Assembly: GCF_028641065.1 (NCBI RefSeq)
Contig: NC_073378.1
Location: forward strand, 114,018,001-114,082,000
Length of the DNA: 64,000 nucleotides
Origin: Leucoraja erinacea
Lineage: Eukaryota
Reading direction: 5' to 3'
Under the pieces are notes generated by a model, which did no database searches, was not told the DNA's origin, and was given only the letters and a program-made list of their open reading frames with translations. Every line of letters starts with the position of its first letter. Position 1 is the stretch's first letter. This document shows positions 2,387-61,404 of this stretch, piece after piece. Made by a program: the position numbers and the translations under genes.

Positions 2387-2745
2387 GAGAGAACTTCTTT
2401 TAAGCTCAACGGACACAAAGGTGGAGTTCAGAATTGAAAATAAAATAATCACTGGATTAATCCGACAATCTAAGATAAACTGCCAGATGAGCATGTGTAT
2501 GATCATTTCAAGAATGTCTCAATTTAGAACCATTTGCATTCTCAAACCCTGTAAAGGGTTAACAATCAATTTGTGGTATTAATTGCATAAGCTGAAGTCA
2601 TCCAGCTCCTCTGGAAATGTTTTGATGCCCTGCAGCAAATAGTTCTGGCTGCTCTAACCAGTGTCTCTGTATACACATAGAACCGATTTCCCAGCATTTC
2701 ACATTATATAACACATGAGGGAATGACTCAGCTTCAAGTTCTAAC

Positions 2746-2881
2746 CTGGTTTTTGTATTGAGATTGATTGAGGCTATGGAACTGGCAGACTCATCAGATA
2801 CCGTGCGCTGCAATAGAGGTGATTGTTCATTGGTCTCCATTTCTGTAAGGATGTCCTCCTCCAGTGAGTCATCTTTAGTTT
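2746..2881 (-). CDS. KMT2C: KMT2C (MLL3) third coding exon, 136 bp: (E)TKDDSLEEDILTEMETNEQSPLLQRTVSDESASSIASINLNTKT(R/S)
   Basis: Acceptor tactttctttaacAG, donor CAG|GTTAGA, phase 1 in and phase 2 out. The peptide aligns with human KMT2C EIKEQSAEED...PTLQRSVSEESANSLVSVGVEAKIS (recalled sequence). Confidence 0.93.
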
Positions 2882-3744
2882 CTGTTAAAGAAAGTAAGCA
2901 AAGTTTTCATAACCTTCAATGTAAAACTCAAATTATTTCCTATACTGCCAACTATACATTAATTTAATAATAATCATCAATTTTTTAGTTGTACACCTTG
3001 TGTAAAATATATTGCCGCTACTGGAAAGATGTATTAAATGCATCTTAACATGTAATTCCTGTAAATGTGGGTTACAAGATTTTCTGTTTAGATAGACCAC
3101 ATAAACACGTGGAAAGGAATGGAAATCAAAGATAATAGCAGATCTGTGTCATGAATTGAAATCAATCTATCAATAAATCTGGACCAAATGAATCATTTTA
3201 AACTTGCCAACCTGACTTAAAAGTGCGAACCTGACTCTGCAGAGGATAAGAACCAGAAGCTGCCCGAGGTTGAATAGTATGGACCAAGCCCTTAAGGATT
3301 TTGTTCCATAAGGACACTATTTTTACATTTGGATGATAGGAAGCAATGTAAAATGAAATGATGGATGTTTTCCTTTTTCTTCCCCACAGTTATTCCGTAA
3401 GTATTCGAGCACTGATTTTTTCAACAAAATATATATTGGGCTGTGCACTGTGCACAATAAAATAATTTTTCAGTGCCTTCGGATAAAAAAAGTCTTCCTT
3501 TTGTAGGATATTTTTTCAGTTGTACCAAACAAAATTCAAGCTTTTGGAGATGAGCTGTGTCATACTGATCTATGAATGGCCTTATTTGAACTGTTTAATT
3601 TGTCATTTCTAAGTATCACCTCTAATAAGCAAAATCCTCAACTTCATCCTCCCGAGATGGCTCTGTTCACGTCTCACTACTCATCATGAGAAATGAACTG
3701 GAGTATATCTATTTCAAAATTGTGAGGAAACACCTTGTAATCAT

Positions 3745-4020
3745 TGTAAAAATAAGGAACTGCAGATGCTGGTAGGATTCTTAATCCTTTTGTCCCACAC
3801 CTTGTTTTTTCATCTCTGGCCTTTGTCCAATCTTCAGCCTATCAACCCCTTCCTTCACCCCTCACCTGTGCTCACCTATTACCTGCCATGTTTTGTCCTG
3901 CCCCTTTTCTCTTCCAGCTTTCCCTCCCTCCCTCCACTGCATCCATGTTCTCCGGAGATGCTGCCTGACCTGCTTAGTTACTCCAACACTTTGCCTCTTT
4001 CCTTGGAATTATCTACAGTT
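3745..4020 (+). mobile_element. Penelope-like terminal repeat fragment
   Basis: Pyrimidine-rich tract followed by ccatgttctccggagatgctgcctgacctgcttagttactccaacactttg, the family tail also seen at 12.2, 13.2, 19.3 and 48.1 kb; the ribozyme core is deleted in this copy. Confidence 0.55.
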
Positions 4021-4586
4021 TTCCCAAATTCGGTGCTTCCTGGGGTTGAAGGGAGGGTGGGGAAGAGAATATTTGGTAAGTCGTGAAGAAGCCAGAACTC
4101 AAAAATAAATCTGCTTTCCCTAATGGGCTGACCATTGTATCTTTTGAGTATTATACTACTGTGCTGTGCAACAGGTTGCCACATCATGCATCCATGCTGA
4201 TAACCATGATGTAACTCTCATTGAAAGTATCAACGGAAGCTATAGCACTCTTACCAGTTAAGTCATAGATTGTTTAAAAAAAATGATTAATATTACCACT
4301 TATACATTGTAATTCCACTGGAGCCGTGTTAATCCTCTGATGTGCTCTGATGCAATCTAGAGCATTTATGAGACTAATGATTATATTTCCAGTTTTGGCT
4401 TAGAAAACATAATTCAGGCTGCAAAAAGAGAAGGCCTTTGTATAACAGTCCAACCTGAGAATTGTCATATTCGGTGCACATTCAATGACAGAAGAGTGAT
4501 ATATTTGTTTATGCAATGCCATATACGACTGGTCCGGACTTCAAGATGGCAGCCAAAAGCTTTAGGGTAAACAAATAAATAAATTG

Positions 4587-4776
4587 AAGAAAGACGCAAA
4601 ATGCTGGAGTAACGCAGCGGGTCAGGCGGAATCCCTGAAGAGCGTGGATTGGTGACGTTTCAGGTCAGAACCCTTCTCCATATGCTCCAGGGATGCTGCC
4701 TGACGTGCTGAGTTACTCCAACATTTTGTGTCTTTCTTTCTTGGTAACCCAGCACCCACAGTTCCTTATTTTTACA
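4587..4776. mobile_element. Head-to-head palindromic Penelope-like mini-element with a partial hammerhead core on the minus strand
   Basis: Inverted arms caaaatgctggagtaacgcagcgggtcaggc and gcctgacgtgctgagttactccaacattttg; the minus strand reads ...agaagggttctgacctGAAACGTCacc. Confidence 0.65.
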
Positions 4777-6335
4777 ACTAAATAAATTGTATCAATTGAC
4801 CTAATTTTCTGCAGGGATTGTTCTCAATCTACAATGCAGCAATGTGAATTAAATCCTTGCAGAAACAGGACACAAGCGATCACACTTTGGGCTGGACGTT
4901 CCACTTTGGTCACCCTAATATTCTGTCTGTTAACCAGAAATTACAAAAATAAATAATAATATCACTGTATAAAAACAAACATTCGTATCCATAGTTTTCT
5001 TCCATATAGTTCATTTGCTATTCCTTCATATTTAATCTACTACGGACTGTACTCTATGTTTCATTATAAATATATATGTATTTCCTTGAGAGAATGAAAG
5101 CCGTATTTAAAATACTCAATTGCTAAACCCAGTCACTAGTGGAAGTAGAGAACAAAGAACAATATATAAATTTGAATGAAATAATTTTAAATAAATGCAT
5201 TGTGAGTGGCATTTATTTTCCTTTTGTAATGATAAACCTGGAGGACATTTTATGTAATCAAGTATCCTTTGGTTGCTAAAGAGTAATTCAACCAAATTGC
5301 ATATATCCAAGGGTGTCATACTTTTCAGAACCTCAGAAATCTTTGTGGGACACACTACATTGCTTAACAAATGTTAACTGAAGTAGTTGAGGCAGATTAA
5401 ATATCAGTCAAATACAGCCAAAGATCCAATTTTCACCTGCTCTTAATCTAGTGCCTTCCAGAGACCTTCAAGATAATATGGTACATTTTGTAAACAGGGA
5501 GAAACAAAAATTCACTAACATAATTCTATCCGAGACAGTTTTCAATCATTCTAAACACAAGTTAATTGATATGCATAATCGACCCAATTCATCCGCCTTC
5601 TTCCTGCACCCTTCAAGCCCTCATTATTAGACAGAGATCTCAAGACCATTTTGTTTTATTTGTTTACAAGTGGTCGTACTAACATACATTCCATCACAAT
5701 GTGGCTGCCAAGGTTATTTCAGAGGGCAATACCCCAAGCCAATTGGTAGGTCAAAATTGCCTACGATGAAAGATTTCCATCCCAGAAAGAGCCATTAGTG
5801 AACCAAGTAGATTTGATTACTCTAATTAAAATCCCCAAGTTACTGCAATGACATCTAATCTTGCCTATCAGGTCTCTAATCAACGTGCCTTCAAGTCCCG
5901 GGATCCTTATTATTTAATACTTTCTGTAAAGGATGCACTATTTCGCTAACATAATTTTTCCTCAAATCCTTTCCTTTTAGAAGACTGAGGTAAGATAGCG
6001 TTTGAACCCTATTCCATATAGGCAATATGACTGTTATATAGATCAGTACAGTACAGGACAGACCCTTCGACGCACGATATTGGTTTTCACAATATTTGCA
6101 TCAGTGCTCTCCAACTATCTTTGAACATAACCAAGGTTTTCACAAACAGATTCTCCAAAGGCCCTTCAGTTATTATATACAAATGTTGCACTGTCACTAT
6201 TAAACCGTAAAATTAAAAGCCCAAATAAGTATTTTTCTGCTTTTGCCAGCCAAAAAAGTTATGAGAAATGAAACCAGAAAATAAAACAATAGATGAAACA
6301 AAAACTACGACTTATACATATATCACCTATCATTA

Positions 6336-12074: not shown

Positions 12075-12292
12075 CTTTGTCCATGCTAACTGATTACCAG
12101 CCAGGCCTCTACTGTTTCTCCCCGTTTACAGCTTCCTTTCCCCCCCTCTCTTCCCCACACATTCAGCCAAATTAGTGTGAAGAAGGCTCGACCCAACACG
12201 TCACCTGTCCATGTTCTCCAGAGATGCTGCCTGACCTGCTGAATTACTCCAGCACTCTGTGTATTTATCAGCATCTGCTGTTTTTTGTTTCT
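12075..12292 (+). mobile_element. Penelope-like terminal repeat fragment with a degenerate hammerhead core
   Basis: gtgtgaagaaggctcgacccaacacgtcacc followed by the family tail gagatgctgcctgacctgctgaattactccagcac. Confidence 0.6.
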
Positions 12293-13040
12293 CCATGTGT
12301 ATTCAAAATGGGTCATCTGTGTGACTTTGATTTCTAGGCCTCAGACATTGGTTGATTTTAAGATTCAGGTTTTATTTTGTCATGACATTAGTACCACTTC
12401 CATAACACATTTTACACGGTTTGTAGTTTCTTTGTTAACCTGCCATTTTCAAAGTATTGGAGACATTTATTTCCAAGTGATTTGAATAGATGATCCCGTG
12501 GAACCTGTTTATTATTTCTGCACAGCCACGGAAGTGCTGTTAGTTCTGCAAAGTTAATGGAATCTTTGAATCAGATTATCAGCATTGCATAGTGCTGAGG
12601 AATGGTGCAGACTGTGACAGACAAAAGAGGACTAAGTTGTTTCAGCTTATTGTGAACACTGTAGCAGCAAAACATAACTGGAAATGAACTAATACGAAAC
12701 CGTGAAATCAGCAACAATGCAATACTTATCCAAAACTTCAATTGAGATATCAGTAACTCAAAACTATTTAATAGTTGTGATTAAGTAATGCAGCGAGGTG
12801 GCAATTTAAAAAATATTGTTTTTTACAAATTTTATCCGATCACTTTACACTTGGGAAGGCATAAAATGTGCTGGTTAGTGACTAACTTGGCAGATAGCCT
12901 ATGAAAATTGGACTCCGTCCAGAAGAGTTATTCCACATATATAAAAAGGACACGTAGCACAAAAATCATTCCACCGATTTCTTGAAAACAAATGCCAATG
13001 CCAAGAACTACTAAAACCAAAAGAAACTCATTGGTATTGG

Positions 13041-13280
13041 AAGATAGGTACAAAATGCTGGGGTAACTCAGCGGATCAGGCAGCATCTCTGGAGAATTGA
13101 GTAGGTGACGTTTCAGGTCGGAACCATTCCCCGGACTTGAGAAAGTCTCTTCTGAGGAAGGGTTCCGACCCAAAACGTCACCTATTCCATTTTGTCACAG
13201 ATGCTGCCTGACCTGATGAGTTGCTCCAGCATTTTGTATCTATCTTCGGAAAAAACTAACATCTGCAGTTCCTTCCTACA
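13041..13280. mobile_element. Head-to-head palindromic Penelope-like mini-element with two hammerhead-like cores, one per strand
   Basis: Inverted arms of about 95 bp (13041-13135 and 13150-13246); + strand ctgaggaagggttccgacccaaaacgtcacc, minus strand ...ggttccgacctgaaacgtcacc. Confidence 0.75.
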
Positions 13281-13762
13281 CCAGTGTTTAATTTTAGATT
13301 AGTTTAGTGGGACAGCACAGATACAAGCTCTTCGACCCACATGAATCAGATATTAAATATACACATTATATTTGATGCCAGAAAGGACTGTACCATACAA
13401 CTGAAGCCAGCTGCACTATTCGTTACTGATTCTCCACCTCAAATACACTCTCAGTGAATACTCGTTTCCACAAATACCTAGCGGTCAAATATCTCTCTAT
13501 TCTAAACGTACTCAATAATATATTGGGATTCTCTACTTTGAAGTCTAAAGAAGCATTACCTTTTGAATAAACCAAGTGCAAATCCATTTTGTGACCCAAA
13601 GCCGCGGTACAGGAAATATCCTCCCAATAACTAGCATTCCAGCCATTGATACGGGTTCCAACCAGGTTTAGTTTCCTTCATATCAGAAATTACATTAACA
13701 ACATAAATACCAGTGGGATCAGACATGGCTCGGGGTGGGACTGCAAAAAATGTCTGCCCAAT

Positions 13763-14884: not shown

Positions 14885-15017
14885 TTGGGGATGAGTCACT
14901 GAATTTGTGATTGCCACTTACAGGAAAGAAGATTACAAGTACCCGCTGCAGGACGAGTAAACAATTTTCAAAGATGATAATATTATTCTAATGTTAAAGC
15001 AGGATGTAATTTCTTAC

Positions 15018-15100
15018 CTGTTTCCATTGCATTTTCTGTTGTCTCCAACCCATCCATACTGTCATCATCATCAACAACCATCTTCCCCCTGCTTCGAGTC
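15018..15100 (-). CDS. KMT2C: KMT2C second coding exon, 83 bp: (K)TRSRGKMVVDDDDSMDGLETTENAMET(E)
   Basis: Acceptor tctttcatgattgcAG, donor CAG|GTAAGA, phase 2 in and phase 1 out, matching the flanking exons. The peptide matches human KPRSRGKTAVEDEDSMDGLETTETE (recalled sequence). Confidence 0.95.
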
Positions 15101-15229
15101 CTGCAATCATGAAAGATATGTCAAAAGCTATAATACAATGGATTCACCTTGCAGAAGGAAGTTACTCAAGTTTTTTCCTGTTTATGATGATGAGATTTTA
15201 TCTCTTTAAAATCAAATTAAATATTTTCA

Positions 15230-18480: not shown

Positions 18481-19271
18481 TTAATACTTTATAAACCTTA
18501 ATAATTCTCAATTTGTTTTTCCTCCTATCTCTCTTTAATTTAGAGAAAATAGTTTTCTATTTATTTAAGTCTGCAACCTCCCTGTATCTGAAAATACACA
18601 CTTTCCTCTATTGAATGGTAGCCGTAAATGAACTGTTCCTAGTTCTCACATATTAGAGAGGTCCAATGGTCTATTTCACTTTTTGTTGTGTCAAAGTGCC
18701 TTAAGCTTGCATTTCCTAACTAGCAGAGTTAATACTGGGAACCCAGAATCTCAACACAGATCACGCTCAATTTACAAACATTAGATTGACAATTTTTTTT
18801 TGTATAATGTGACTAACTCCACCTACAAAGCTATTTGGCACTATAAATGAACAATCCTTCAACATTAGGGAGCAGAGAGGAGGGGTGGGGGTTGAGTCAT
18901 TTTAAGTGATATCAGCAGTAAGTGTCAATTAAAATCCCAGGCACAGCTGAGTCAAAGATCACTATCCATTTCTGACAGTTAATAGACTGTTTCTTGTGCA
19001 GACCATTTACACAAGTGCTTGATGAAAGAATACTCCCGATGCAATTATCTGTTGGAAACAGAACTGTACCGGCTGCAGCAGAATGTTACTTCCAGTTGTG
19101 TTCTGAATATGACGAAGGGGTGTGTGACTGATGTTTAAACATGTGCTTCTATGATCAGAATCAACAACGTGTGCCAAAGGTTGATGATGGCCCATGATAT
19201 AGCTCAGAAACAGACTGAAAAAGAATGCTACGATGAATCTTCTGAAAGTCTTAACACATTCAAGACTAGTC

Positions 19272-19363
19272 TGAAGAAGTGTTTCGACCCAAAACGTTGC
19301 CTATTTCCTTTGCTCCATAGATGGTGCCTCACCCGCTGAGTTTCTCCAGCATTTTTGTCTACC
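19272..19363 (+). mobile_element. 92-bp Penelope-like mini-element that begins at the hammerhead core, with an 11-bp TSD
   Basis: caagactagtc at 19261-19271 and 19364-19374; body (c)tgaagaagtgtttcgacccaaaacgttgcc...tttttgtctacc. Confidence 0.8.
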
Positions 19364-20254
19364 CAAGACTAGTCATTGGTTGTTTGGATGCCTTAATAAC
19401 TGTACCAGTTACGACTGAACAAGTTGAGCAGCATAGTGGCGCAGCTGGTAAAGCTGCTCAATGTAATTGAATGGTGGCAGACTCAAGGGGCCAACTAGTT
19501 TGCTCCTGCTTTTTTCTGCTTTTAGAAATCTGCATAGATGACAATGCCAATAGGAACCACAGTATTGGATGTGGTCACATGATGGAAATGGCTATGCTTT
19601 GCTATAAGGAGATTTATCAGATACAAAGTTATCCATTAATATCGTTCTTAAGTCTTGTTATAAGCCACGGAAGAAAAGTCAAAAAAGAATCTTTGCTTTC
19701 AATGTTGCCAGCTCCATTGGGTTCTGATTCAAGAGCAGCGGCACCATTATCGGAACACCAGGGACCACTAAATGTCACAACATCCCTTTCGCTATCTTAA
19801 CATATGAGGGCCACAAAGATTAGGAGCAGGTTTAAATAACTTGGCTCTGAGCTGCTCTGCGATTATATTACATTATGGCCGATTTGATTGCTGCCACAAT
19901 TCTGCAACTGCTTTCACAGCCATTGATGAAGACGACAGTCTTACATGAGCAAGTTTTTATTTTTAGGCAACGACCCCTACTCTAAACTGTCCCGCAAGAG
20001 GATCTCAGCAGCATTCTATTACTCCCATTTTTTTACGATTCACATGAGTACTACCCTGAATAGATAAATTATGTTTTATTATTTCAAAGATTTTATTGTC
20101 AATAAAACATTTTAGCATTTCAAATTATTGCCTTGGTGGCTTCATAAACTTTTGCGCATCTAATTCTTATGCAATTTGACGATGATTTATTTTCAAAATG
20201 AAATGACAAAAGATGCTTTTCACATGACATTCATCTTCCTTGCACTCAGCATCC

Positions 20255-20487
20255 CAACTGACAATCAACCCTCTCACCCCACCTGTATCTACCTATCACT
20301 CACCAGGCTTTGTCCTGCCCCCACCTGTCTTTTCCAGCTTCCTTCCCCTATTGAAATCAGTCTGAAGGAAGCCGACCCAAAATGTCACGTCCATTCTCTC
20401 CATCAGACACGCTGTCTGACCCACTGAGTTGCTCTGGCACTAAGTCTTGATCAAGATTCCAGGATCTGCAGTTGTTTGCTTCTCCAC
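20255..20487 (+). mobile_element. Penelope-like terminal repeat fragment with a degenerate hammerhead core
   Basis: cagtctgaaggaagccgacccaaaatgtcac followed by the family tail. Confidence 0.55.
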
Positions 20488-20534
20488 ATTTTCTTGAAAA
20501 TGATTATTACATGACCAAGAAAATAAGCAACTTA

Positions 20535-22124: not shown

Positions 22125-24004
22125 TATATTCTCATTTTCATGTACTCACCTATCTTGATAATAATGATATCACTCTCATGATAAACATCACTTGAATTGA
22201 TATTTCATGAAAATTGACTTGTGGATTCAAATCAACATCTTTAAATATATTCAGTACAAAGGTTTTCCTTCAGTATAATATGAAAAAAAGTGTATTTTGA
22301 AGCAACTAACAGCAGGGCTCATGGCTGGAAAATTATCTTATCCAGTCTCAAGTTCGTGAGTAAAGATATTATCTTGGTAATTCATTGTCATGTACATCAA
22401 GATACAGTGGAAAACTTTGTTTTGAGCGCTACCCAGGCAGATAATACAAGTACAATCAGACAACCATGAGCAGTGTAAAAGAGAAAATAAACAGAGTGCA
22501 TAATATAATGTAATAGCTATAGAGAAAGTGCAGAATTTAAAAAAAAAGGGCAAAGGTCACAACAAGGTAGATTGGAAGATCTAAAATACCTTTAAAACTC
22601 TAAAAATACATTTGAGAAGTTTGATCAAGAGTGGTATCAGCAGGAAAAGGCTGTTTTTTTTAATCTAGTGGTAGATGCGTTCAAGCTTTTGTATATTTTG
22701 CCTAATGGGAGAGGGGGTAAAATAAATGATTGGGATGTGAGAGGTCCTCGATAATGTTGGGTGCATTCCCGAGACTGCATAAAGTGCAGTTGGAGTCAAT
22801 GGGGGGGGGGGTTAAGGATTATCTCTACTTCAACACCATTGATATAGACTCGGATGTGCATTCCTGCCCGATGACCAGCTCCTTTTCATCTTCAATTCAC
22901 CATGTTACCAAGCTCTCTTTTTTGCGCTCAGCCTCGTTATTTTTTGAGATATGGCCCCACTATAATGGTGACATGTGCAAAATTATGACCGGAGTTTAAG
23001 CAGAATTTGGCCAAAAGGGCATGATCATCATCAGCCCCTTAACACACCACACGCTGAGTACCAGGGGTGGAAATCGCTATCAAAACATGGGGGGAGGGGT
23101 GTAATGTCTTGAATCATCATGTCCCGCCTCCACTGCCTGCTGACCGACATCTCTCTCGTCCAATCGGTGCCCTCGATCATCAGTCACAACCCCACTGTCT
23201 CACAGAAAGCGGGGATTTTTAATAGATTTTTTTTCACAGAATTTCAAAATTCAGATTACAAAACATGGGGGGGGGATTGTATTTCCCCCCGAGATTTCCG
23301 CCTATGCTGAGTACGGTAAGGGGCTGAATACATGATATCGGGGGGAATCTGTCGAGGATGTTTCGTGTATATCCTTACGGATTGTGGTCTACAGGTTAAG
23401 AAGTCTAAGTTCCGGATGCTGTGTGGTTGTAGGTCCAAGAGTTTGGAGATGAGTTTGGTTAGAAATATGGTGTTGAAAGTGGAAAATAGGATGTAATAAA
23501 AAGGACCTGTGGGTGCTGGTTTATACCAAAGATAAACACAAAATGCTGGAGTAACTCAGCAGGTTTGGCAGCATCTCTGGTTCACTCTCACAAAGGATGT
23601 CTCCCCTTGTGTATTGAAATAATTTTCACATCCCAAACTAAAGTATGCATTTCATCATTTGGGGCCATGATTCCCGTGAATAGATAAGATTCTGGATAAG
23701 TACTGTACACAAATGATGCAAATATAACCCTTTGAGACAGATTGGAAAATAAATGATCACCCGGAGCTTTTAGCTTTGTTTTGAATGCAAGCACCAGCAA
23801 GCTGTAATTCTCAAGCAATAAATCGCAAACTAAGTATTATTAACATAAATAGAAACAAGACAAACATGCCCAGCTACAAGATATAATTTAAAATCATTTT
23901 CATCATTGAGCCTCCGAAGCCTCGCGCGTGTGTGAGTGTGCGCATGCTCACACGGCCGCCAAAAAATTGTGTTCCCCGTCCCCTCCATGTTTTGATAGCG
24001 AGTT

Positions 24005-32062: not shown

Positions 32063-33039
32063 TTTGTCCCAGGAGCGTTTTCTCAAAGTCCAACAGTGAC
32101 GTCCTGCAGCTGAGGCTTTACAACTGCGATAGAATTTCCTGTGTTACTTCCGAGTTTATACAATGGAGTTTTCTCCAATATTCCCATTGAAACCGTTTTG
32201 CCAGGACTCCCTGATACCAAATTCAATTGAACTCAGCCATAATATCTGTCATTAACACATTACCTTTTGAAGTCAGTACTCCATCGTTGAACCAAATCTG
32301 GTTGTCCTTGCAAACTCAAACTTAGCAGGCAATAACTAACTGGTTACCTAAAGACAGGCTTAATTATACATTGCATTACCTCATTGATGAATGAAAACTC
32401 CTTCAGCTTCAGTGGATTGGATATTGTTAGTTAAATACGCTGGTGTAGCTGGACTGGGACAGCTTGACTAGAGGCATAACTATAGGCATGGAAGTCATGA
32501 AGCAGAGAAGACACTGCCTGTCCCTTTTGCAGTATTCTTTATATTAACATTGGTGAACTCAGAAAGCAACCATCCTCGCTTAAGTCAGTTGCAAATAGTT
32601 CAATGTTATTGCCTTTCAACTGGGTATGGAAAATGTTCATCTGATCTGTCAATTTGGGGATTGTTTTTTGTAGTTTCCATTATTTAGAATGCAAATTTGT
32701 TTACTTTTCTCCTACTTTTCTTTTCTCCTCGTCGTGGAGGACATGCCCAACCTGACTTGCTGTGTACGTCTTCCTGCTCTGAATTTCCCAACTCCCACAT
32801 TCTTTTGCCTGTTCTCATTCTGTTTCAATTCACTAAATGCCGAGATAACCAGATTCTCAATGCCCAGATAACCCAACAAGCTCCTAATGCCTCCTTCCCA
32901 GATCTGAAAAAATGTCCATAATATGAAACAGTAACTGTTTCTCTCCCTATAGATACACCTGATCTGCTGAGTATTTCCAATATTTTTTGTTCTTATTTCC
33001 AATTTCCACACAAAACTTTGCGCCATAGAAGACACAACA

Positions 33040-39110: not shown

Positions 39111-41344
39111 CGAATGAAGTGCAAAATGCATGGCTATTGAACATTCCCAGCAGATTAAACCGTGGTAATGTTCAGTGAAAAACAGAGCCACTATCTCAAA
39201 TGGACGGCTTACAGCAGAAACTGTTCATTATGATAAAAAAATGAAAAGTAGTTAATCAAAGTTGCACTCTAATATCAAGAAGGATTTTTAAACAAATATG
39301 ATTAAAAAGGAGTTTAATTTTTGATGGTTTGAACAAGACCTGTATACATACCAACAGAATTGCCTTGCACAGAATTGAGTCTCAAGAATTATTAATGGAA
39401 GATCAGGTGTTGGCAGATGAGTTAAATAGGCATCTTTAATCACCCAGTCAAGAGTGTACGTAACCTCAGAAATAGCAAGAGAAAGTTGGAAGGGAGAGAG
39501 TTAAAGGGAACATCCAGAACTAGAGCACGGTCTCAACCTAAAACCTAAAACATTGACATGCAGCTTTTGCCTCCACAGATGCTGCTTGGCCCGCTGAATT
39601 ATCTAGCATTGTTTTTTTTGTTACAGAATCCAATGGCTCTAATCTTTGTGCTTTTTGAAATAGTGGTCACTGCATTAAATAACGAGTCACCGTTTTAAGA
39701 TAGTGATGAGGCAAAAATAAATAAATTCAGAGCATCATACTCTTTGGAACTATTCCTCAAAGGCCCAAGAATGTAAACAAACTCTTGATAAGCAAGGTAG
39801 ATATAAATCAGGAGTTACATTATAATTAAAGTAGATGGTATGTTAAATGGCAGAATGGGCTGGGAAATCTGAGGGGCAAGTGGCTTTCTCCTACTTACCA
39901 GCAGGATTCTTCCATGAGCTGCCTGGTTTTAATCAATTGAATTTCAGCAACATTTGGAAGTACCTTAAACTCCAGCTCTATGAACATAGATGCTGCCTCA
40001 CCCGCTGAGTTTCTCCAGCACTTTTGGTCTACCTTCGATTTTCCAGCCTCTGCAGTTCCTTCTTGAACATAACAAAACACAATGGATCTTGCTTGGCAAG
40101 CATGCGATACTTAAAGAACCTGGTACTCCCCACCACCCCTCCACTCTCCGCCTCCCCATGCTTCTCTGAAGTGAAAAGGTATTGGCATGAATAAATGTAA
40201 TGGTGCAACAGAGCATCCACAGATCTGTGGGATAAAGAATCACAACCTTCAGAGTGAACTTCTTATCTCAGTCTTAGGTGGCTGCCTCCTTATCCCAAGA
40301 CCATGTTACTTACTTCCCAACAAGCTAAATATCCTCATTGCATTTACTGTCAAGCAACCTCAGCATCTTAAGTTTCAATGAAATTACCACTAACTCTTTG
40401 AAACTTCTGAATATGTAAGCCCATTTTGCTTAACCTTTCTACTGAATACCATCTCTCATCCATGAATCATAGGTTGCAGAGTACATCGCTGCCTTATAGC
40501 GCTTTAGGATATGATTAACTCTCAACAAATGGCACACAAAATAGCAATGGTAAGGTGGGGAGAAGAAATTAAATGAAAATGACTGACAGTGACAGTGTCT
40601 GGAAGTGAGCTTGAATTTGTCTAAATGGACCCAACGAGAAAGCCACAACAATCCTGTTTCACATCCCCAGCTGTACATTAGGAAAAGTGATCACCATTTC
40701 CACTAAACAAAACAGTTATCCATGTTTACTCTATATCCTTCACCGTAAGGCAAATCAATTTCACATTGCTACTATTATTTTTAAATGCCTTTTTCCTCGA
40801 TTAATGCAATTTCAACAAAGTAAGTCATATTTCAATTTTACAGATTGCACCTTCTAGCAATTAAAATGCTATATTCAATAACAAATTAACAGGTATTTGC
40901 AATCTGTAGATGGCTCATTTCTGTATCTATGTGAACGTCCAGCACCTGTTTTGCACCGGTGAAAAGACGACATTTTAACCTTTATGGTAACACCTTTCGC
41001 AACTTCAGAAGTCCCAAGATGTACGTATGTTGGCATTTGAAGGATTAAAAAAAATATTTAAATATAAATATCACAAGAGCCTATAGATGCTAGAATCTGG
41101 AGCAAAAGACAAACTGTTGAAAGAACTCAGTGGGCCAAACAAGAGCAGGGAAAGCTAGGGATGGATTAATCTTTCAGATTGCTTTCCTGCAGGACTGGAA
41201 CATTTGGATCAGGATCATTAAAAATATGTCTTCAATCTAAAACTGGATTTCTCAACGCTGTATTATTTAATGCTAGGCGAAATCAGTCTTATTCCCCCTC
41301 TTTATTAAACCTAGGATGGATTTTATTGTATGTTTGATCTTGAT

Positions 41345-44895: not shown

Positions 44896-45077
44896 AAAGT
44901 GATGAATTTGAGATTGTTAAAAGTGATTGTCTTGAGGACAGTATTATGGTTAAGTAGGTGCTGGACATCCTAAGGCATATAAATGTAGATAAATTACCCG
45001 AGCCTGACCAAATATATCCGGGGACGCTGTGGGAAGTTAGAGAAGAAATTGCAGAAGCCCTGATGGAGATATATCAA

Positions 45078-45508
45078 GGGAGGTAGGGAGGTGGGGAGGG
45101 GAGGGGTGGAGGAGGGAGGGGTGGGGAGGGAGGAGGGAGGGGGGGGTGGAGGAGGAGGAAGATGGGGAGGGGTGGAGGAGGGAGATGGGGAAGGGTGGAG
45201 GGGGGGAAGATGGGGAGGGGTGAAGGGAGATACCCCCTCTATCTACCCTCACTCCCACCCTCTCTACACCCTCACCTCCCTCCCCCTCTACCCCCCCCCT
45301 CCCTCTCAAGGGATTGAAGAGGGAGGGTAAAGAGGAGGAGGAGGGGGGAGTGCTGGGGGATGAGGAGAAATGAGCCGCGCCTGTGCAGTTGGTGGTTATG
45401 CGTGAGTGGTGCAATATTGCGTTGGGAGAACGGCTTGCGTTGGGGGAACGGGTGAGTGGTGGAATCTTGCGTTTGGGAGCAGGCCCAACGGGTCTGCCCT
45501 TGGTCTAG
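45078..45508 (+). mobile_element. Putative non-autonomous Helitron/Helentron with a low-complexity purine/pyrimidine interior
   Basis: Ends in the hairpin GCAGGCCC-AAC-GGGTCTGC (45479-45497) followed by ...ggtCTAG (45505-45508); the left boundary is uncertain. Confidence 0.55.
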
Positions 45509-46412: not shown

Positions 46413-48112
46413 GAGTGGAAACAGGCCCTTCGTCCCAACTCGCCCATACCAGCCAACAATGTCCCAGCTACCCTAGTCCCATTTGCCTGCGCTTGATCCA
46501 TAACCCTTCAAACCTGTCCTATCCATGCATTGATATTGTTTGTTCTTTACAATACCTTCCTCAATTGAAGGTGCTAATTCCTCTGGATGATTTCGTAGGT
46601 GCACAAAGATTTGTGTATATTTTTTCTTGTTGCTAAATTCAACATTTTAAATGTGCAAAGCCTTAAAAAGCCTTCTGATTAAACCATTTTAATGTGCCTA
46701 CAAGTTCTTCTAAGGCCTGACCCCCATCTCATTCCAGTGTGCTCCAGTCCACAACCTCCAGAGAACTTTCCACTTCTGGCCATAAATCCTCAACCCATTC
46801 CACTGATAGCTTCACCTCTCCTCAAGCTGCTTGTAAAGTCTACTTCTTAGTCCTATCTTTCAGTCACATATCCCATTATCTTTGGAACCTCAGTACCCAA
46901 ATGAAATGCATGTATACCTATGAAACACCCGAGGGCAAGTGTCAATGGCACTTAGATGCAGCCCATTGTGGAATTTGGGCAACGTGGCTTCTAAGAGCAT
47001 AAATGACAAAGCTTCTTTCAATTATTTTACACTTTAATATTTACTCCTCAATGATTTGTAACACATCATATGAGCTAATAGGCCTGTCATATTTCAGTAT
47101 TTAACCAGTTATCTAATAGCTTAAACCTAAATGTAAAAAAGTACATTAATGTACAATCAATATAGTTGAAAATTAATGCATTAAATCTGACAGGACAACA
47201 GATTCAATATTTCGTTACAGTAAAAAATAACCTCTACACAAGAATCAGGAAGTGATTTTTTTATTACAAGTTCTGTGATACAACTATTACTTTTTCAAAC
47301 CATTTTATTCTGACCTCGAAACATAACTACAGCTATAAGAACAATCAATACAACTATACTTCAATTGATTACTGACAAATGAAGGATAAAGCAACTGTCA
47401 CTGCCCCACAGTAAACACTATTCTGAGGGAAGATGCAGACCACGGTCTGCAAGATGGGGGTAACATAAATCACTACACATTATATACTCCACTGCACGCG
47501 TCTCTCCTTTCATTGCGACCCATTTCAAATGTTTGTTTAGCTGTAATCTGACATTTAAAGTGAAATTAACGAACAAGTCATAATCACAATATTTAAATAT
47601 CATTCAGTAACTGACTCCTAAAGTTGTAAATATATCGAAAATATCTTGTTTGGTTTTTGTAGAGAAACTGCATTCAGCGCTCATTGTAAACTCCATTAGA
47701 TGAAAGTGTTTTCCAAAAACAAACAAGAAATTGCAGAGTATGTTGTAACTTCCATTTAAAATATTACGCTGGCAACAAAAAAATCCACAATCTTAATGGT
47801 CCATACCCCACCCCCAGCCAATGCAATAAAACTTATCCTCATGATCCAACTAAAATGAAGAGGGGGCGGAACACTGCTGGCAAAAATAGTGCCGACCCTA
47901 AGGCTGAGCAAAAATCCTGGCATGGATCAGTTTAAGATCCGGATTCAAAAACTGACACATGGCGACGGTCTCAGAATGAATTGAAACTTAACCCATTACA
48001 CGCCAAAATTCTTAACCAAGCTCAAGGGAAGACAGGAATCATTACTTGTTTCTGGACAAGATTTTTAACTTCAAGTGTGGCTGTGGTACGGTATGTGGTA
48101 TGATGTCGCCAT

Positions 48113-48205
48113 CAGTCTGAAGAAGGGTCTTGACCTGAAACGTTACCCTTTCTCTCCGGTTATGTTGCATCACCCGCTGAGTTACTCCAGCATTTTGTGT
48201 CTACC
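48113..48205 (+). ncRNA. Minimal type-I hammerhead ribozyme motif at the head of a Penelope-like mini-element; best-preserved copy
   Basis: cagt CTGAAGA A GGGTC TT GACCT GAAA C GTT^ACC: CUGANGA box, helix II, GAAA box, palindromic ACGU helix III and an NUH triplet ending at 48144. Confidence 0.65.
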
Positions 48206-48684
48206 TATACAGCAATTAACTTCAACATCTCGATGAAAGCCTCCCTTTAGCAGTATTTTCATCACATTACGTTCCAATGTTGATCAAGCACCTTCATATG
48301 ATTCCATTGATACACAAAATGCAATTGTTCCATATTAAATTTAAAGGCGGACTAGGTTTCTACATTAAAAAATAAACCTAACTTAACTATGATAAATACA
48401 GCAAATGGTCAGGAGGACAGAGGGAGAGTTTCAGATCAATTAACTTTTATCAGAAACAAACGGTTAATGCTGGGGAAATTAAAATAAGCTTACGGCATAC
48501 GGATAAAGAGAATGGTGATGGGACAAGAAACTAATACAGGATATAGACAGAAGTGTATTTGCAATAACCGAATCATTATATAACTTAATGTTGAGTCCAC
48601 AGGCCGCTATGCTCAGTTGAATGTTGAGTCATTGCTCCTGGCACAGCAGTACTGCTGTTGAGAAGAGGTTAGGTCAGAACGTAA

Positions 48685-49170: not shown

Positions 49171-49958
49171 AAGCTTCCTCCAGCAGCTCATTCCAGACGT
49201 GGACTACCTTCTTAATGAAAAAGACGGCCAAGGTCCCTATTCAATCAAGATAGGTCGACTGTATCAGAGTTCACTTGAGTTTATAGAGAGAGGGGGGGGA
49301 GGGGGGAAAGAGAAGAGGGTTGTCTAAATGAAACAAAATTTGGCAGGGTTTGATAGATTGGGTGCATGGAGAATGTTTCTATTGGATATGGGCCACGGGC
49401 TCAGGTTGCAGGACAAGAAATTTAGGTCCAAGAAGTGAAGAAATTTCTCCAGAAGGTGATGAAATTATGGAATTTGCTACCGCAATGGGGTGCAAAGGGG
49501 AAGTCATTGAATATATTTAAGATAGAATGCTAACTTTGTATACGCAAAACAATCAAGAGGTATGGACTAAGTCTAGAAAATACAGCATTGGAGACCGATG
49601 ATCACTGCGATCGTAGTGAAAGCTTCTTCTGCTCCTGCTTTCTATGTGTCTATGGTTAAGTTTGATGAGGCCAATACAGGAAGCTAACAAAAATTTAAGA
49701 GTGTGGAGTACAGAATTACAAGAGAAACTGTCATTCTTTTCAATTAAATTGAGATACGACTCAAACCAATCATGTAATCTGGATTCCGTCCTAACTGTCT
49801 TACTGTCTCCACTCCCTACCCATTTCCACTCAATTACCTAAAGACAACCAGGCACTAGTAACTAAAACTTCAATTAGATCAATATTTCAACAAGGCAGTA
49901 TTCAAGGCTCTGCACAGTAGCATGGTGTAGGAACAAAAATAGAAGACGTACTAGAAAG

Positions 49959-50050
49959 TAGACAAAAGTCTACTGGGGAAACTCAGCGGGTGCAGCAGCA
50001 TCTATGGAGCGAAGGAAATAGGCAACGTTTTGGGCTGAAACCCTTCTTCT
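49959..50050 (-). mobile_element. 92-bp Penelope-like mini-element that begins at the hammerhead core, with a 15-bp TSD
   Basis: agacgtactagaaag at 49944-49958 and 50051-50065; the minus strand reads agaagaagggtttcagcccaaaacgttgcctatttcc...ttttgtcta. Confidence 0.82.
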
Positions 50051-51499
50051 AGACGTACTAGAAAGGCTAATATAGCATCTCCTGTGCCAACATGGAAAAA
50101 TATTGTAAAGAACCAGAGTGCTGGGAGTAACTGAAGAGAGAAACAGTGTATAAAGAATGGCTATATCATAAGGCTGAAGAGGGAAGAGAGATCTGCTTGA
50201 TGGTGGAACCATTTTAGAGTTGACAGAAATGGCAAATAGATGATCAGTTTAAAGTGGAGAATGCTGGGACAGAGGACGAGAACAAAGACTACCTTTACCA
50301 ATGGAGCATGAAGCATGAAAGCAGAAATGCAGAAAAAGGAACAGGGTTAAGTCAATGATGGTCACTGGTACTTATGCGGAAGTTGTAATCATTGGCGCAC
50401 ATCCAATAATACAAAATTGGGAGAATAGAAAATAGCCCTTTCAGGAAGCAAGGCTTAAAGATATGCAACCAAGGTTGTGTTGAGAATCTGCGGACCTACA
50501 GTGTATATTAATCAATAAAATGGAAGTGAAAACAGGATGGTCATGAAGGAAAAATAAAAGTTAGGTGGGCTCATGCAAAAAAGACTAAATCAAAGCAACT
50601 TTAATTAGTTCCAAAATGGACAAAATTCAAACAAAAGAGCGAGAATATAATAAAAACAGGTGAGAAAAACAAAACAAAGGGGTTCCACATATTCAGTGAA
50701 AAACTGGGATTAATAGATTCCCATGAGCAACACCTTCTTTCAAGGGAATAGAGTAAAAAGTTTTGTAATACGAGAACATGTTCAGTCAGGCAGAGAATAC
50801 AGGTGACAGATGGGACAGGTTTGGCCTCAAATCAAAAAAGGAGTATCTGGGGGTGGCATGATGAAAGATGAAGCAGTAGATAGATTGGGAAATGTAGTAA
50901 AACTTTGACAATTAGGACCACAAGAACATGAACCGATGAGGGCATCGGAAAAAGGGATTCAGGAAGAAAACACAGGAAGAAAAATAAAAGCCGAGTTACA
51001 AATATTTCCATGAAACAAGGACAGGCTAGATTGATTTTGGGAAGAAGTAGAATATGTAGGGTTGGAATTTGTGAATTTTCTTTCATGTTTTTTTCAGTCC
51101 AGCTTCAGAGTATGCCTGACATTATATTTGTTGTTGAGCCCATACTGACCTTGGATCTCCAGCAGTAATCCACCAAATCTTGGGAGATAACATCTTGCCT
51201 TCCAACAAGGCACATTACAATATCTCAAATTTAGTAAAAATAATTTCACAAAATTATCCTAATATTGCCATTTACCCCCACTTTTGACCGTTTGCAAGGT
51301 TCACATTTGTTTACCACCTATTTTTGGCTTGCACTCATTTAGCATTTATCTCTTCTACCTCCTTCCGACAGCATCCCCTTCCCTACTGTACTTTCCTCCA
51401 CCAATCCCTTTTCTTTCAACTTTGTTCTGTCACGGGTTCTGATGAAACATCAAATCCGAAATATTAACTCTTATTTCCTTCTTACAAGGGGGGTGGGTT

Positions 51500-52545: not shown

Positions 52546-52749
52546 TAGCAACTCCACTGGGTCATGATGGACTTCATTCCAGGGTCTTAAAAAAGAGGTG
52601 ATCAATGAAGAGTTGGTTCTAACCTGGGTCACTGACCTGAAACATTTGTTCGGTTTCTCTCACCATACATACCGCCCGATTAGTATTTCCAGCATTATGC
52701 TTTAATTTCACAGTTACTGCTTTGGTTTTAATTTTCAAAAAAACTCCTT

Positions 52750-53310: not shown

Positions 53311-53711
53311 GTTTTGGGATTAATTTGGCAAGTGTTTGACCAACAGTCATAGATGTGCAGTACTAAACAATACAAACCAAACTGATGCATTCAGAACACC
53401 CGAAAGTGTTTACTGCATAAATTATATTAAAGCCAGCAAATGGCTTATTCAATTTGTACTGTGAGATAATTAATGAAAAGCAGAAATACAGCAAGAGCAC
53501 CCATAAAATACTTCCAAATCAACTGAATGAAAGAATTGAATGCCATATTAATAGTAAGCATTTCTGTCTGAACATGCAATGAAAAGGATCTTTACTCAAA
53601 ACCATAATGTGTGCTGTACCCCAAAGTACTGCAACAAACAGATTTTTTGAAACTACTAATATATTTATTGAGCTAATAGACATCCAGCATGGAAACTGGC
53701 TCTTCGACCTA

Positions 53712-57418: not shown

Positions 57419-58039
57419 TATATCATCTGGTTCTTGATTTCTCTACACTGAGACTGTAATTGTTCATTTTATTTTCCAAATAAAGTTACGAGATCACACG
57501 AACCTTGGTCCTTTTCCTAACAATACTCAATTTTCCAGTCTTAGTTGAGTTGTACAGCATATTAACAGGTGCTTCGTCCCACTGCATCTATGCCAACAAT
57601 CATACCTATCTACATCAATCTCACTTCCCTGCATTAATTTTATATCGCTCTATGCTTTGCTTATTCATGTACTTTTCCAAATGTCTTAACCATTGTTACC
57701 ATTCTACCTCCGTCACTTCCTCTGGCAACTCATTCCAGTTTCCCCCCGTGAAATATTTACCTCTCAGATCCCATTTTGACCACCTCCCTCTTACCCACAC
57801 TATATATTTGCAGACAGACTGCCCTACAAAAACATTAATAGGATGTCAAAACAAATTTCTAATCATAGTTTGAGTTAGGAATGCAATTAAGAAGTTAATT
57901 TCAGCCCGACATAAACCACAATAATAAGGAAAATCAAGAAATACTCAACAGATCAGGCAGCAGCTCTAGAGATGGAAAATTAGGTAACATTTCAAGTTAG
58001 CAGTTTTTTGGTAGAAAGACCAGAAACATTAAGTCAATT

Positions 58040-59135: not shown

Positions 59136-60138
59136 ATTTGAACAGATTCTGCCACACCTTCCCAACATTTATTTCAGATTTCCAGCATCTATGACTATTT
59201 TGCATTTCTACATTAATTTGGAGGAAGTTTAAATAAAAGACAAAACTTTCCGTCTTAAATTTAAGAAGAATTTTCCGAATGGCAAGTGTAGATATTTCAG
59301 ACAGCTTCCACTCCAACTGCTTAAAAAACACTCAGCCAAATGTTTTGGTTTTGTGAGTGAATGCATTACTACAAATGAATGCATTTCTGGTACTAGTGAT
59401 GGCATAATTAGAACAATTTGAGTGGATGAAAAAAAATGCTGAAATTAGTCAACCGCTTTAAATATTATTTTTTGGATTATATGTAAGCACTGTACTAAAT
59501 GAGTGACAAGGGTGAAATTAGAGGATATTTACATAATGCTAAGTGCAAATATTACATATATCTTGGGGAAACAAATGATGAACACCTCATGCCTGGTAGA
59601 CAGTCAATGTTTACAGTGGTGGATGAAATATCAATAATCGGCTGTTTTGTCCAGGAGGGTGTTACGTTTGAGTGCTACTGGAGTTACACTTATCCTGGCA
59701 ATTGAAGTTCTTTCACATTTCTGGCTTGCACCTTCATCTGATAGAAAGTAATCTTAAACTGACCTATTAAAATAGTTAGTAGTCCACATACATTTGAATT
59801 CAGACAAGATTCAAAACCATGCCGATTTTAACATGCCGCAAAGAGAAAAGGCTTTGTAGCAGAAGATCATTGTATTTCCAAAAACAATAAAGATGTTGAG
59901 GGAGCATCAAATATATTATCCTAACCATGCCAGGCCATCTGTTCCATGAACCAAGTACACAAAGCAATTGGGTTTAAAATAAAAGTGTTCCTGAAAGCTG
60001 ATGCGTTTTAGGCATTAGCAAATCTCAAGATATCAGATGCAGATTTCGGAGAACCATCATACGGAGTACAGTAGCTGCTTGGTAACATCTGAACACAACC
60101 AATGCAACTTAATTTACAAATTTTCAAATAACACTTAC

Positions 60139-60299
60139 TTCTTTTTCTTCTGTAGAGGAGTTGTGCCATCTTTGCGAGGTCGGCCCCGTGGCCGTTTGTC
60201 ATTATTTACAGGGCTGCCAACAGGAACAGCCGCGAGGGCGACAGAAAGAGGTGGCGGTCCTAGGTCAGATGCCTCCACACTTTTGTCCTCTGATGACAT
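60139..60299 (-). CDS. KMT2C: KMT2C first coding exon, 161 coding bp: MSSEDKSVEASDLGPPPLSVALAAVPVGSPVNNDKRPRGRPRKDGTTPLQKKK(K), with AT-hook
   Basis: MSSE(E)DKSVE and DKRPRGRPRKDG are the recognisable KMT2C N-terminus; donor GAA|GTAAGT; phase 2 joins the exon at 15100 in frame. Confidence 0.96.
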
Positions 60300-61404
60300 T
60301 CTAAGGAGATGAAAGAATAAAATTTGGAATTAGAAAACAATGACTAACACTGAAAACTAAGCATCAAATCCAGTTGCTAAATCCCAAGTATCCGGAGATA
60401 TTTGTCTGACTATTTTAACCCAAATAAAATAGCACAGATCAAGTGTGGTTGCCTTTGACCAGCAACTGATTGAAACACGAACTGCTAACAAAACCATCTT
60501 TCTGTAACATAAGGAACTCTATTGGTTCACTTCAGAGATTGTGCACCACAACCATCAATGCAACATTTTAAATTCAGTCACTATTTTAGTTGTCAATCCC
60601 AGTAATATGCAGTATTTCTTATCCATCCAAAATATTTCACTTTTGAGCAATGGATTACCAGTGGATCTGTTAAAACAAGCAGTTGAGTCAGTTTGAAGTT
60701 CATGTGATTATAGAAGGTAGCTGATTAGTGAGTACTTTACAGAGACTTCAAGATGCTGTGGTGTATATGTATGTATGTATGATTTTAATCCTTGAGCCAA
60801 TGCTGTTTGTGACCAGAGAGGCCCAGGCTTTTGATACAATCATGATGAAATTGCCATGATGCTGTGCAAATTCAAGGAAAACAGTCACCTGCTTCTTCAC
60901 AACAGTGTGACCCATCTTTTTCTTAACGGTAAGCTTTTAGAGGAAGAACATGTTGCCAATGGCTGCGGGTAACACCCAAATTGCACAACCTCTACTCACA
61001 CATGTGATGGTACTTGAAGGAACAGATATCGGGTTCACTGGCAGCAGCACCATCTACCGTAGAATTATTCTACCATGGATAACATCAAGCTTCAGATTTT
61101 ATTGCAACAGCAACAATCAGACAAGTGGTTAATACAATCACAATGTTGAGTGGAGATTTTTAGATGATAGAAGATTTTTGGGTCAATGGGAAGAGAGTAA
61201 TTTGTCAAAGAATTTCCAGCCTTCATCTTTTTCTTTATCTAGATAATAGTTATTGTTTATGATCTCGCCCACCAATAATCATGGGAAGATTTCTTGGGCT
61301 ATATCATGTTTGGACAAGATGGTATATTTAAGACACACTCTATGTGATGCTTGCTGGAAGGGATGTAAACCGTGTTTTGATGTTCCTGATCCAGACTCAT
61401 AACT

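What the first reader, a model, noticed from the sequence alone, without database searches (positions are those of the whole stretch)
48113..48205. Hammerhead-ribozyme-bearing mini-retroelement family scattered through the KMT2C introns
Seen: a short repeat occurs more than 10 times (about 3.9, 4.6, 12.2, 13.1, 19.3, 20.4, 23.5, 32.9, 39.6, 40.0, 48.1, 50.0 and 52.6 kb). Its head has the consensus AGT-CTGAAGA-A-GGGTYYCGACCC-GAAA-CGTY-ACC, and the 48.1 kb copy keeps both catalytic boxes and helix II. Established: this architecture (CUGANGA, short helix II, GAAA, loopless palindromic ACGU helix III, NUH) is the minimal type-I hammerhead of Penelope-like elements and animal retrozymes, which cleaves as a dimer. 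Inference: this is a non-autonomous, ribozyme-headed retroelement family that may be poorly annotated in elasmobranchs. Helix I pairing looks weak by eye and most copies are decayed.
Basis: partly seen in the sequence, partly recalled or inferred. Interest (0 to 1): 0.75.

Follow-up and report, generated by a model that had tools for sequence, protein, structure and literature searches.

The report
Penelope retrotransposon stubs with minimal hammerhead
This very common short repeat in a cartilaginous-fish gene carries a known miniature self-cutting RNA motif and is likely the cut-short end of a known kind of jumping gene (Penelope-like); the copies here are worn and probably do not cut the host RNA, so it is ordinary in kind.

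Summary
The repeat and the motif are real. All 13 sites named were recovered (two only weakly), and 48117-48146 is the only minimal type-I hammerhead in the window (0 hits in 200 shuffles). It fits the published consensus for Penelope-like element (PLE) hammerheads. The copies also show the PLE insertion signature: 8-15-nt target-site duplications (6 of 15 sites), head-to-head inverted pairs, an optional 37-nt tail and variable 5' truncation into a longer upstream sequence. They are dispersed, not tandem, so they are not retrozymes. They are best read as stubs of a PLE end repeat, not a separate family, though no RT/GIY-YIG partner could be linked here. Against activity: no helix II covariation, a 2-bp helix I, a competing hairpin, and no read-end pile-up in RNA. 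The intact copy is antisense to KMT2C. The class is published (2014); I found no paper on it in sharks or rays, but this scan has already noted the family many times in this and related genomes. One unexplained detail: the CpG that holds catalytic G12 is lost in 8 of 8 heads, while neighbouring CpGs survive in 12 of 16.

The parts
48111..48208 (+). The reported copy: hammerhead head plus body, short 3' end (no tail)
   Evidence: about 16% from the in-window majority
48115..48146 (+). Minimal type-I hammerhead: helix I 48115-48116/48145-48146, CUGAAGA 48117-48123, extra A 48124, helix II 48125-48128/48133-48136 (first pair G.U), GAAA 48137-48140, palindromic ACGU, U17 48144, predicted cut after 48144
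   Evidence: only descriptor hit in the window, 0 in 200 shuffles; fits the published consensus
48065..48074 (.). Left target-site duplication, 10 nt
48216..48225 (.). Right target-site duplication, 10 nt
48075..48110 (+). 36 nt of unrelated GT-rich filler inside the duplication, 5' of the head
   Evidence: origin unknown
3741..4031 (+). Long copy: inverted tail (3741-3776, minus strand), about 170 nt of pyrimidine-rich upstream sequence, head deleted, body
   Evidence: opposite-strand joints 3772/3773 to 3990-3993 show that the piece is the tail
4587..4778 (.). Head-to-head inverted pair; minus arm has a part head and short end, plus arm has no head and has the tail; one 11-nt duplication (4576-4586, 4779-4789) around the whole unit
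12080..12290 (+). Copy with about 85 nt upstream sequence, damaged head, tail with a deletion
13034..13285 (.). Head-to-head inverted pair; both arms have heads, only the plus arm has the 37-nt tail (13244-13281); no duplication found
19268..19363 (+). Short copy with head, short end, 11-nt duplication (19261-19271, 19364-19374)
   Evidence: left junction also bridged by a contig of organism F
20230..20495 (+). Long, diverged copy (29%) with upstream sequence, damaged head and tail
23483..23582 (-). Headless copy with tail
39985..40063 (+). Headless copy with tail, 8-nt duplication (39981-39988, 40064-40071)
41081..41138 (-). Headless diverged copy with tail, 8-nt duplication (41073-41080, 41139-41146)
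49959..50052 (-). Short copy with damaged head, short end, 15-nt duplication (49944-49958, 50051-50065)
32900..33010 (+). Old, weak copy
   Evidence: E 0.79, 0.19
39523..39622 (+). Old copy with remnant head
52620..52705 (+). Old, weak copy
   Evidence: E 0.044
57943..57998 (-).
   Evidence: E 0.00017
60138..60329 (-). Frame holding the first coding exon of KMT2C (host gene)
14986..15120 (-). Frame holding the next KMT2C exon
2601..2906 (-). Frame holding the third KMT2C exon found

Best explanation
The repeat carries a minimal type-I hammerhead motif and is likely the terminal repeat (pLTR) of an endonuclease-bearing Penelope-like retrotransposon, left in very many short, now decayed stubs that the element's own enzyme would have written into the genome. 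Shown: the motif, target-site duplications, inverted pairs, two 3' end points about 37 nt apart, longer copies with shared upstream sequence, and very high abundance. Inferred steps: (1) the RT/GIY-YIG protein nicks AT-rich DNA with an 8-15-nt stagger; (2) reverse transcription starts inside the RNA, at either end of the tail, about 60-100 nt 3' of the ribozyme; (3) it copies through an uncut hammerhead and usually stops within a few bases of helix I, probably the RNA's 5' end or a structural stop, giving 90-135-nt stubs; (4) sometimes it runs further or switches template and gives long copies or head-to-head pairs. The ribozyme would work only on the RNA of tandem full-length elements, as a dimer and probably with protein help. 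Single intronic stubs are passengers and would not cut KMT2C RNA.
For: Motif fits the published PLE consensus, including the extra base after A9, the palindromic helix III and the U-rich 5' flank; the only descriptor hit, 0 in 200 shuffles. Duplications of 8, 8, 10, 11, 11 and 15 nt sit at the copy edges at 6 of 15 sites tested; PLE inserts in rotifer have 8-10 bp. The 4.6-kb unit is an inverted pair with the tail on one arm inside one duplication, as described for PLEs; the 13.1-kb pair and the inverted tail at 3741 repeat the pattern. Tail 37 nt against 30-40 bp in print, and the tail lies between two RT start sites in the anole PLE. Three copies run 85-170 nt upstream with different 5' ends. 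In public runs, 24,765-56,265 contigs per run lay on the two stretches in organisms A, D, F and G; the majority letters upstream of the body give an intact core with constant GGGU/ACCC stems and a variable loop (CCCG, CUCG), agreement 0.52-0.76. The body is about 190 times deeper than the upstream part in DNA and about 80 times in RNA. No pile-up of read ends in either lay, as reported for the anole PLE, where uncut RNA is the main template.
Against: No RT or GIY-YIG frame linked to the repeat was found: none in the window, none through translated-repeat searches or DNA pattern scans. The PLE clade is therefore not tested. Helix II shows no two-sided change in 8 heads, and 246 of 500 shuffles match the score. 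Helix I is 2 bp, shorter than most published rows. In the 48.1-kb head the hammerhead fold scores -2.0 kcal/mol against -7.7 for a competing hairpin, helix II pairing probability rounds to 0, and two copies folded together do not give the dimer form. 9 of 15 sites have no duplication at their edges. The sharp 5' edge and the large excess of short copies also fit a short non-autonomous source. The depth ratio depends on how well the 3.8-kb copy seeds the mapping, and the tool says summed depth is no copy number.
Confidence: 0.8

Rival explanations
1. A separate non-autonomous family: a 95-135-nt ribozyme-headed RNA is transcribed and copied as its own unit by PLE enzymes in trans.
For: Heads at 13.15, 19.3, 48.1 and 50.0 kb, and less clearly the minus arm at 13.1 kb, begin within about 7 nt of the CUGA box; stubs have their own duplications; the body far outnumbers the upstream part; two sequence groups are visible among copies; non-autonomous PLE derivatives are described.
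Against: Long copies share the same head, body and tail and differ only in 5' extent; no internal promoter was identified; inverted pairs and tail are those of ordinary PLE insertions.
Confidence: 0.12
2. An animal retrozyme: tandem monomers, each with a hammerhead, that self-cleave into circular RNA.
For: Same type-I motif; retrozymes were reported in the one chondrichthyan sampled, mean unit 363 bp. One head-to-tail joint was seen in 129 RNA reads of a relative (3990 back to 3941).
Against: No tandem array of this repeat in the window (16 rows, none at a copy); neighbours are inverted, not head to tail; unit about 95-135 nt; that joint was not seen in the two DNA runs laid and may be one locus.
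Confidence: 0.03
3. A tRNA-derived SINE whose B box happens to look like helix II.
For: GGGTYYCGACCC resembles a Pol III B box (consensus recalled, not from a call); short, high-copy, with duplications.
Against: ARAGORN finds no tRNA and Rfam no tRNA-like match; both catalytic boxes and the palindrome are in register; no A-rich or simple-repeat 3' end; inverted pairs.
Confidence: 0.02
4. The 48.1-kb copy is kept as a working ribozyme that regulates KMT2C.
For: It is the one copy with both boxes intact; G.U at 10.1-11.1 occurs in published PLE rows.
Against: It is antisense to KMT2C; it is about 16% from the family majority, like the others; no minus-strand copy passes the descriptor; the monomer is predicted to misfold.
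Confidence: 0.02

Closest known systems
Minimal hammerheads (min-HHR) in pLTRs of metazoan Penelope-like elements (Cervera and De la Pena 2014, PMC4209133)
   Same: CUGANGA-H, helix II opening with G, GAAA, loopless palindromic helix III, NUH, U-rich 5' flank; mostly single, genome-wide, tied to truncated PLEs; thousands of copies in coelacanth and Xenopus.
   Different: Helix II is short (4 bp, tetraloop) and helix I 2 bp; no chondrichthyan row among the 10 vertebrate rows of their alignment; abundance here appears higher than their 4,000-9,000, though they counted intact motifs and I counted contigs.
Insertion units of endonuclease-bearing PLEs (Penelope/Poseidon, Neptune; PMC8557442, PMC3846280)
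   Same: 5' truncation, adjacent inverted copy head to head, 30-40-bp tail on one arm, 8-10-bp duplication around the unit, solo pLTRs.
   Different: No coding part in this window; most units are reduced to 90-135 nt and many begin at the edge of the hammerhead.
PAc (Poseidon of Anolis carolinensis; Frangieh et al. 2024, PMC11167929)
   Same: Hammerhead upstream of a tail bounded by two 3' end points; AT-rich targets; no RNA ends at the predicted cut.
   Different: In PAc the frame starts in helix II; here there is no ATG at that place. Protein-assisted cleavage was shown for PAc and is untested here.
Animal non-LTR retrozymes (bioRxiv 10.64898/2026.07.22.740005)
   Same: Type-I hammerhead, kinship to PLE pLTRs.
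   Different: Defined by tandem units with a hammerhead in each and depleted from introns in Xenopus; these copies are single or inverted and intronic.

Membership tests
PLE minimal type-I hammerhead | CUGANGA and GAAA boxes, NUH | tested here: met
   48117-48144; majority letters intact in public runs
PLE minimal type-I hammerhead | One extra base between A9 and 10.1 | tested here: met
   A in 8 of 8 heads
PLE minimal type-I hammerhead | Helix II with G10.1-C11.1 | tested here: met
   89% of cells paired in 8 heads, against at most 50% for the slid structure; 10.1-11.1 is G-C in 4, G.U in 2, unpaired in 2; G.U in the 48.1-kb copy
PLE minimal type-I hammerhead | Covariation in helix II | tested here: inconclusive
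   0 two-sided changes in helix II; 246 of 500 shuffles reach the score; only 8 decayed copies
PLE minimal type-I hammerhead | Palindromic 15.2-16.2, no loop III | tested here: met
   ACGU in the 48.1-kb copy; the CG is kept in 7 of 8 heads
PLE minimal type-I hammerhead | Helix I | tested here: inconclusive
   2 bp, 81% of cells paired; 2-bp rows exist in print (D. virilis, Culex)
PLE minimal type-I hammerhead | Self-cleavage as a dimer | not testable with these tools
   needs a bench assay; folding favours another hairpin; no end pile-up in polyA reads
Endonuclease-bearing Penelope-like element | Single frame with telomerase-like RT and GIY-YIG endonuclease | tested here: inconclusive
   absent from the window; no genome held; outside searches blank
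Endonuclease-bearing Penelope-like element | Hammerhead in the terminal repeat | tested here: met
Endonuclease-bearing Penelope-like element | Adjacent inverted truncated copy | tested here: met
   4.6 and 13.1 kb pairs, inverted tail at 3741
Endonuclease-bearing Penelope-like element | Optional 30-40-bp tail | tested here: met
   37 nt; 6 hits end at profile 261-269 and 8 at 291-313 (seed limits affect these ends, duplications confirm them at 6 sites)
Endonuclease-bearing Penelope-like element | Short target-site duplication | tested here: met
   8-15 nt at 6 of 15 sites
Endonuclease-bearing Penelope-like element | Partial tandem forming pLTRs | tested here: inconclusive
   none in the window; no full-length copy present
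Animal non-LTR retrozyme | Tandem units each with a hammerhead | tested here: not met
   one intact head in 64 kb
Animal non-LTR retrozyme | Abundant circular RNA | not testable with these tools
   only a polyA library of a relative was laid
tRNA-derived SINE | tRNA-like head with A and B boxes | tested here: not met

The most novel reading that the evidence does not exclude
[quoted passage not shown] Inserted copies are then switched off at one base pair: the CpG holding C11.1 and the general base G12 is lost far faster than its neighbours, through selection against intact hammerheads or a hairpin-loop mutation hot spot built into the element.
Probability: 0.2. Interest if true: 0.5.

Novelty: new member of a known kind. 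Interest (0 to 1): 0.2.

Why it matters
The class is known, so the finding mainly extends PLE minimal hammerheads to cartilaginous fish, where my searches found no paper. Its use would be as material: very many dated insertions with sharp ends allow tests of where PLE reverse transcription starts and stops, whether cut RNA is ever copied, and whether hosts purge intact ribozymes from genes. What the PLE hammerhead does is still open in the papers read.

Tried and rejected
Rfam: no hammerhead model hit. Whole genome: none held, so no genome-wide count, tree or extension. DNA pattern scans: blank in viral, metagenome (20, 22) and genome collections (23); two looser patterns gave 4 and 10 loci that match only 22-47 nt of the body around the pattern, with no head, and are treated as chance. 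Protein route to a partner: translated upstream part or body gave nothing; two weak hits among 1.84 billion representatives were unrelated repeat proteins without names. Short PLE protein motifs (recalled) found nothing convincing in six frames; of 12 frames scanned against Pfam, 4 had hits, none GIY-YIG. One search used a mis-indexed structure and is discarded; one search is the corrected count. Run search: no RNA holder listed. APOBEC-type editing as the cause of G12A was rejected because G5 and G8, also followed by A, are G in 8 of 8 heads. Local sequence context was not supported: CG share is 0.091 in CCGA/TCGG and 0.098 in ACGT in 53.5 kb of background. Selection against cutting KMT2C RNA does not fit, as 5 of the 8 heads are antisense. 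The dimer-cleavage paper of Lunse et al. is not held; I know it only from a review's passages.

Full report
Observation. The repeat is real. The 48.1-kb copy alone finds 14 hits, 13 at E<0.01. A profile of 12 copies finds 23, of which 16 are at E<0.01 (12 are its own seeds), and none in the reversed window. Eight copies keep an alignable head. A relaxed descriptor for the minimal type-I hammerhead hits only 48117, on either strand, and never in 200 shuffled windows. The predicted cut after 48144 is correctly placed. In this copy pair 10.1-11.1 is G.U and helix I has 2 bp. Rfam has no hammerhead match here.

Host. Three consecutive KMT2C exons lie on the minus strand near 60.2, 15.0 and 2.8 kb. 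The best protein hit is from a bamboo shark at 84%, so this is a cartilaginous fish; 'skate or ray' comes from recall and from earlier scan notes, not from a call. The intact copy is antisense to the gene. None of the three sense-strand heads passes the descriptor.

Anatomy. The unit is head (about 35 nt), body (about 60 nt) and an optional tail (37 nt). Exact duplications of 8-15 nt sit at the edges of 6 of 15 sites tested (4.6, 19.3, 40.0, 41.1, 48.1, 50.0 kb); the other nine have none at their edges. At 4.6 kb two arms lie head to head inside one 11-nt duplication, with the tail on one arm only. The 13.1-kb pair is built alike, and the 3.8-kb copy starts with an inverted tail. Copies at 3.8, 12.1 and 20.2 kb continue 85-170 nt upstream into a shared pyrimidine-rich sequence and stop at different points. 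Most other heads begin within about 7 nt of the CUGA box. There is no tandem array and no tRNA-like head. Copies are 11-29% from the in-window majority.

Other genomes and RNA. Twenty listed runs in 8 studies hold the stretch or part of it. Laid on 19100-20700 and 3660-4110, DNA runs of organisms A, D, F and G gave 24,765-56,265 contigs each (the first stretch also holds a Tc1 end). Summed depth on the body is 3-7 x 10^5 times single-copy depth; the tool warns that this is no copy number, so I take it only as 'very abundant'. The majority letters next to the body give an intact core with constant helix II stems and a variable loop, at 0.52-0.76 agreement. A per-column majority of C and G does not show how many copies keep both. 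The body is about 190 times deeper than the upstream part in DNA and about 80 times in RNA, with the caveat that seeding differs. Contigs of organisms F and G bridge junctions of the 19.3- and 3.8-kb copies, so these insertions are shared and old. PolyA reads of organism D (6% of the run read; 7,281 and 5,490 laid) come in both directions about equally, lie on the repeats and not on the unique flanks, and show no pile-up of ends. Fragmented polyA libraries are a weak test of cleavage.

Against activity. Helix II pairs in 89% of cells but shows no two-sided change, and 246 of 500 shuffles reach the covariation score. Folding z-scores of five stretches run from -1.7 to +0.9. In the 48.1-kb head a competing hairpin (-7.7 kcal/mol) beats the hammerhead fold (-2.0), and two copies together do not form the dimer by free energy alone. 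In print these motifs show no cleavage as monomers and low cleavage as dimers, and the anole one cuts only with the element's protein. A weak fold therefore does not argue against membership, but it does argue against a working single copy.

Partner. No whole genome is held. No PLE frame was found in the window, by translated-repeat searches or by pattern scans. The PLE assignment therefore rests on motif and insertion anatomy. Earlier notes of this scan name a Neptune-type element (e1-9885287); I could not check that.

Mechanism. See Best explanation. The target-primed insertion, internal start at the tail and use of uncut RNA are taken from the anole PLE and inferred here from duplications, two 3' end points and heads copied whole. 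I had seen the sharp 5' edge; the reading of it as run-off at the RNA's 5' end is taken from e1-9854223 and e1-9806395 and is untested.

An unexplained detail. The CpG at C11.1-G12 is lost in 8 of 8 heads (5 CA, 3 TG), while the two nearest CpGs are kept in 5 of 8 and 7 of 8 (Fisher p 0.0013 pooled, 0.026 against the loop CpG alone). I chose the site after seeing the data, n is small and copies need not be independent. Four older, weak copies were left out of the count; by eye they have lost both this CpG and the ACGT one. Background context does not explain it, nor does selection on KMT2C RNA, since five of the eight are antisense. One contig keeps this CpG, so intact copies exist.

What is known. 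Minimal hammerheads in PLE terminal repeats, mostly as single truncated copies in thousands, were described in 2014 (PMC4209133: text parts 1-2 of 4 read, supplement file 2 part 2 of 3 read and searched, file 1 not available). Its alignment has no chondrichthyan among 10 vertebrate rows, and six shark or skate terms were absent from the two files searched. Insertion structure: PMC8557442 and PMC3846280 (passages). Mechanism: PMC11167929 (parts 1-2 of 4). Retrozymes: bioRxiv 10.64898/2026.07.22.740005 (parts 1 and 3 of 5 and passages); it sampled one chondrichthyan and found retrozymes there, and its supplements, which I could not see, may hold this family. Reviews PMC6155905 and PMC6765202: passages. 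PMC9605692 and bioRxiv 2025.06.08.657570: passages, 'Penelope' absent from both main texts. Searches for a paper on this family in sharks or rays found none (open-access library only; repeat databases were not searchable). Within this scan 27 notes in the same genome fit the look-up, with more in related genomes.

Verdict. Observation confirmed; interpretation partly supported. A new member of a known kind, already noted many times by this scan. Interest 0.2.

Noticed in passing
heads of 8 copies (48136-48137 in the reported one): The CpG at C11.1-G12 is lost in 8 of 8 heads (5 CA, 3 TG) while the CpGs five bases either side are kept in 5 of 8 and 7 of 8 (Fisher p 0.0013 pooled; site chosen after seeing the data). 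The two arms of the 13.1-kb pair differ (TG, CA), which suggests loss after insertion. The site lies in the loop of the competing GAC/GUC hairpin.
   Followed up: partly
20335-20361 and 48111-48116: A pyrimidine tract ending in CAG directly 5' of helix I looks like a 3' splice site; in D. virilis Penelope an intron ends at helix I. No spliced form was seen among the loose ends shown.
   Followed up: no
48075-48110: 36 nt of GT-rich filler inside the target-site duplication, unrelated to the element.
   Followed up: no
heads of 5 copies folded: A long competing hairpin (purine-rich box strand with the pyrimidine run after the cut site) is the best fold in all 5 heads folded; it could be an off state relieved by the element's protein.
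   Followed up: partly
run X22, joint 3990 back to 3941: 129 RNA reads from 76 starts show a head-to-tail junction of the repeat in organism D; possibly one expressed locus.
   Followed up: no
25259-26885 and 55803-57387; 20529-22082; 53711-55572: Tc1/mariner elements with terminal inverted repeats; the first two are 93-98% alike and the 56-kb one has a 314-aa frame with HTH and DDE hits.
   Followed up: partly
13707-14666, 15501-18373, 24443-25138, 41315-41985, 44393-44969: Fragments of other non-LTR retrotransposons; RVT_1 hits at 13.7 kb (strong) and 44.6 kb (weak). Clade names were not tested.
   Followed up: partly
16545-17223, 41932-42668, 6312-6654, 7385-8324: Further fold-back or paired repeats (MITE-like), unrelated to the hammerhead family.
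   Followed up: no
1-2400: G-rich minisatellite with a unit of about 15 nt.
   Followed up: no
45077-45345: Purine/pyrimidine inverted low-complexity tract that draws most of the spurious Rfam microRNA hits.
   Followed up: no
27281-27343, 28718-28780, 61535-61597: A second dispersed repeat (family D14); from recall it resembles the core of fish V-SINEs.
   Followed up: no
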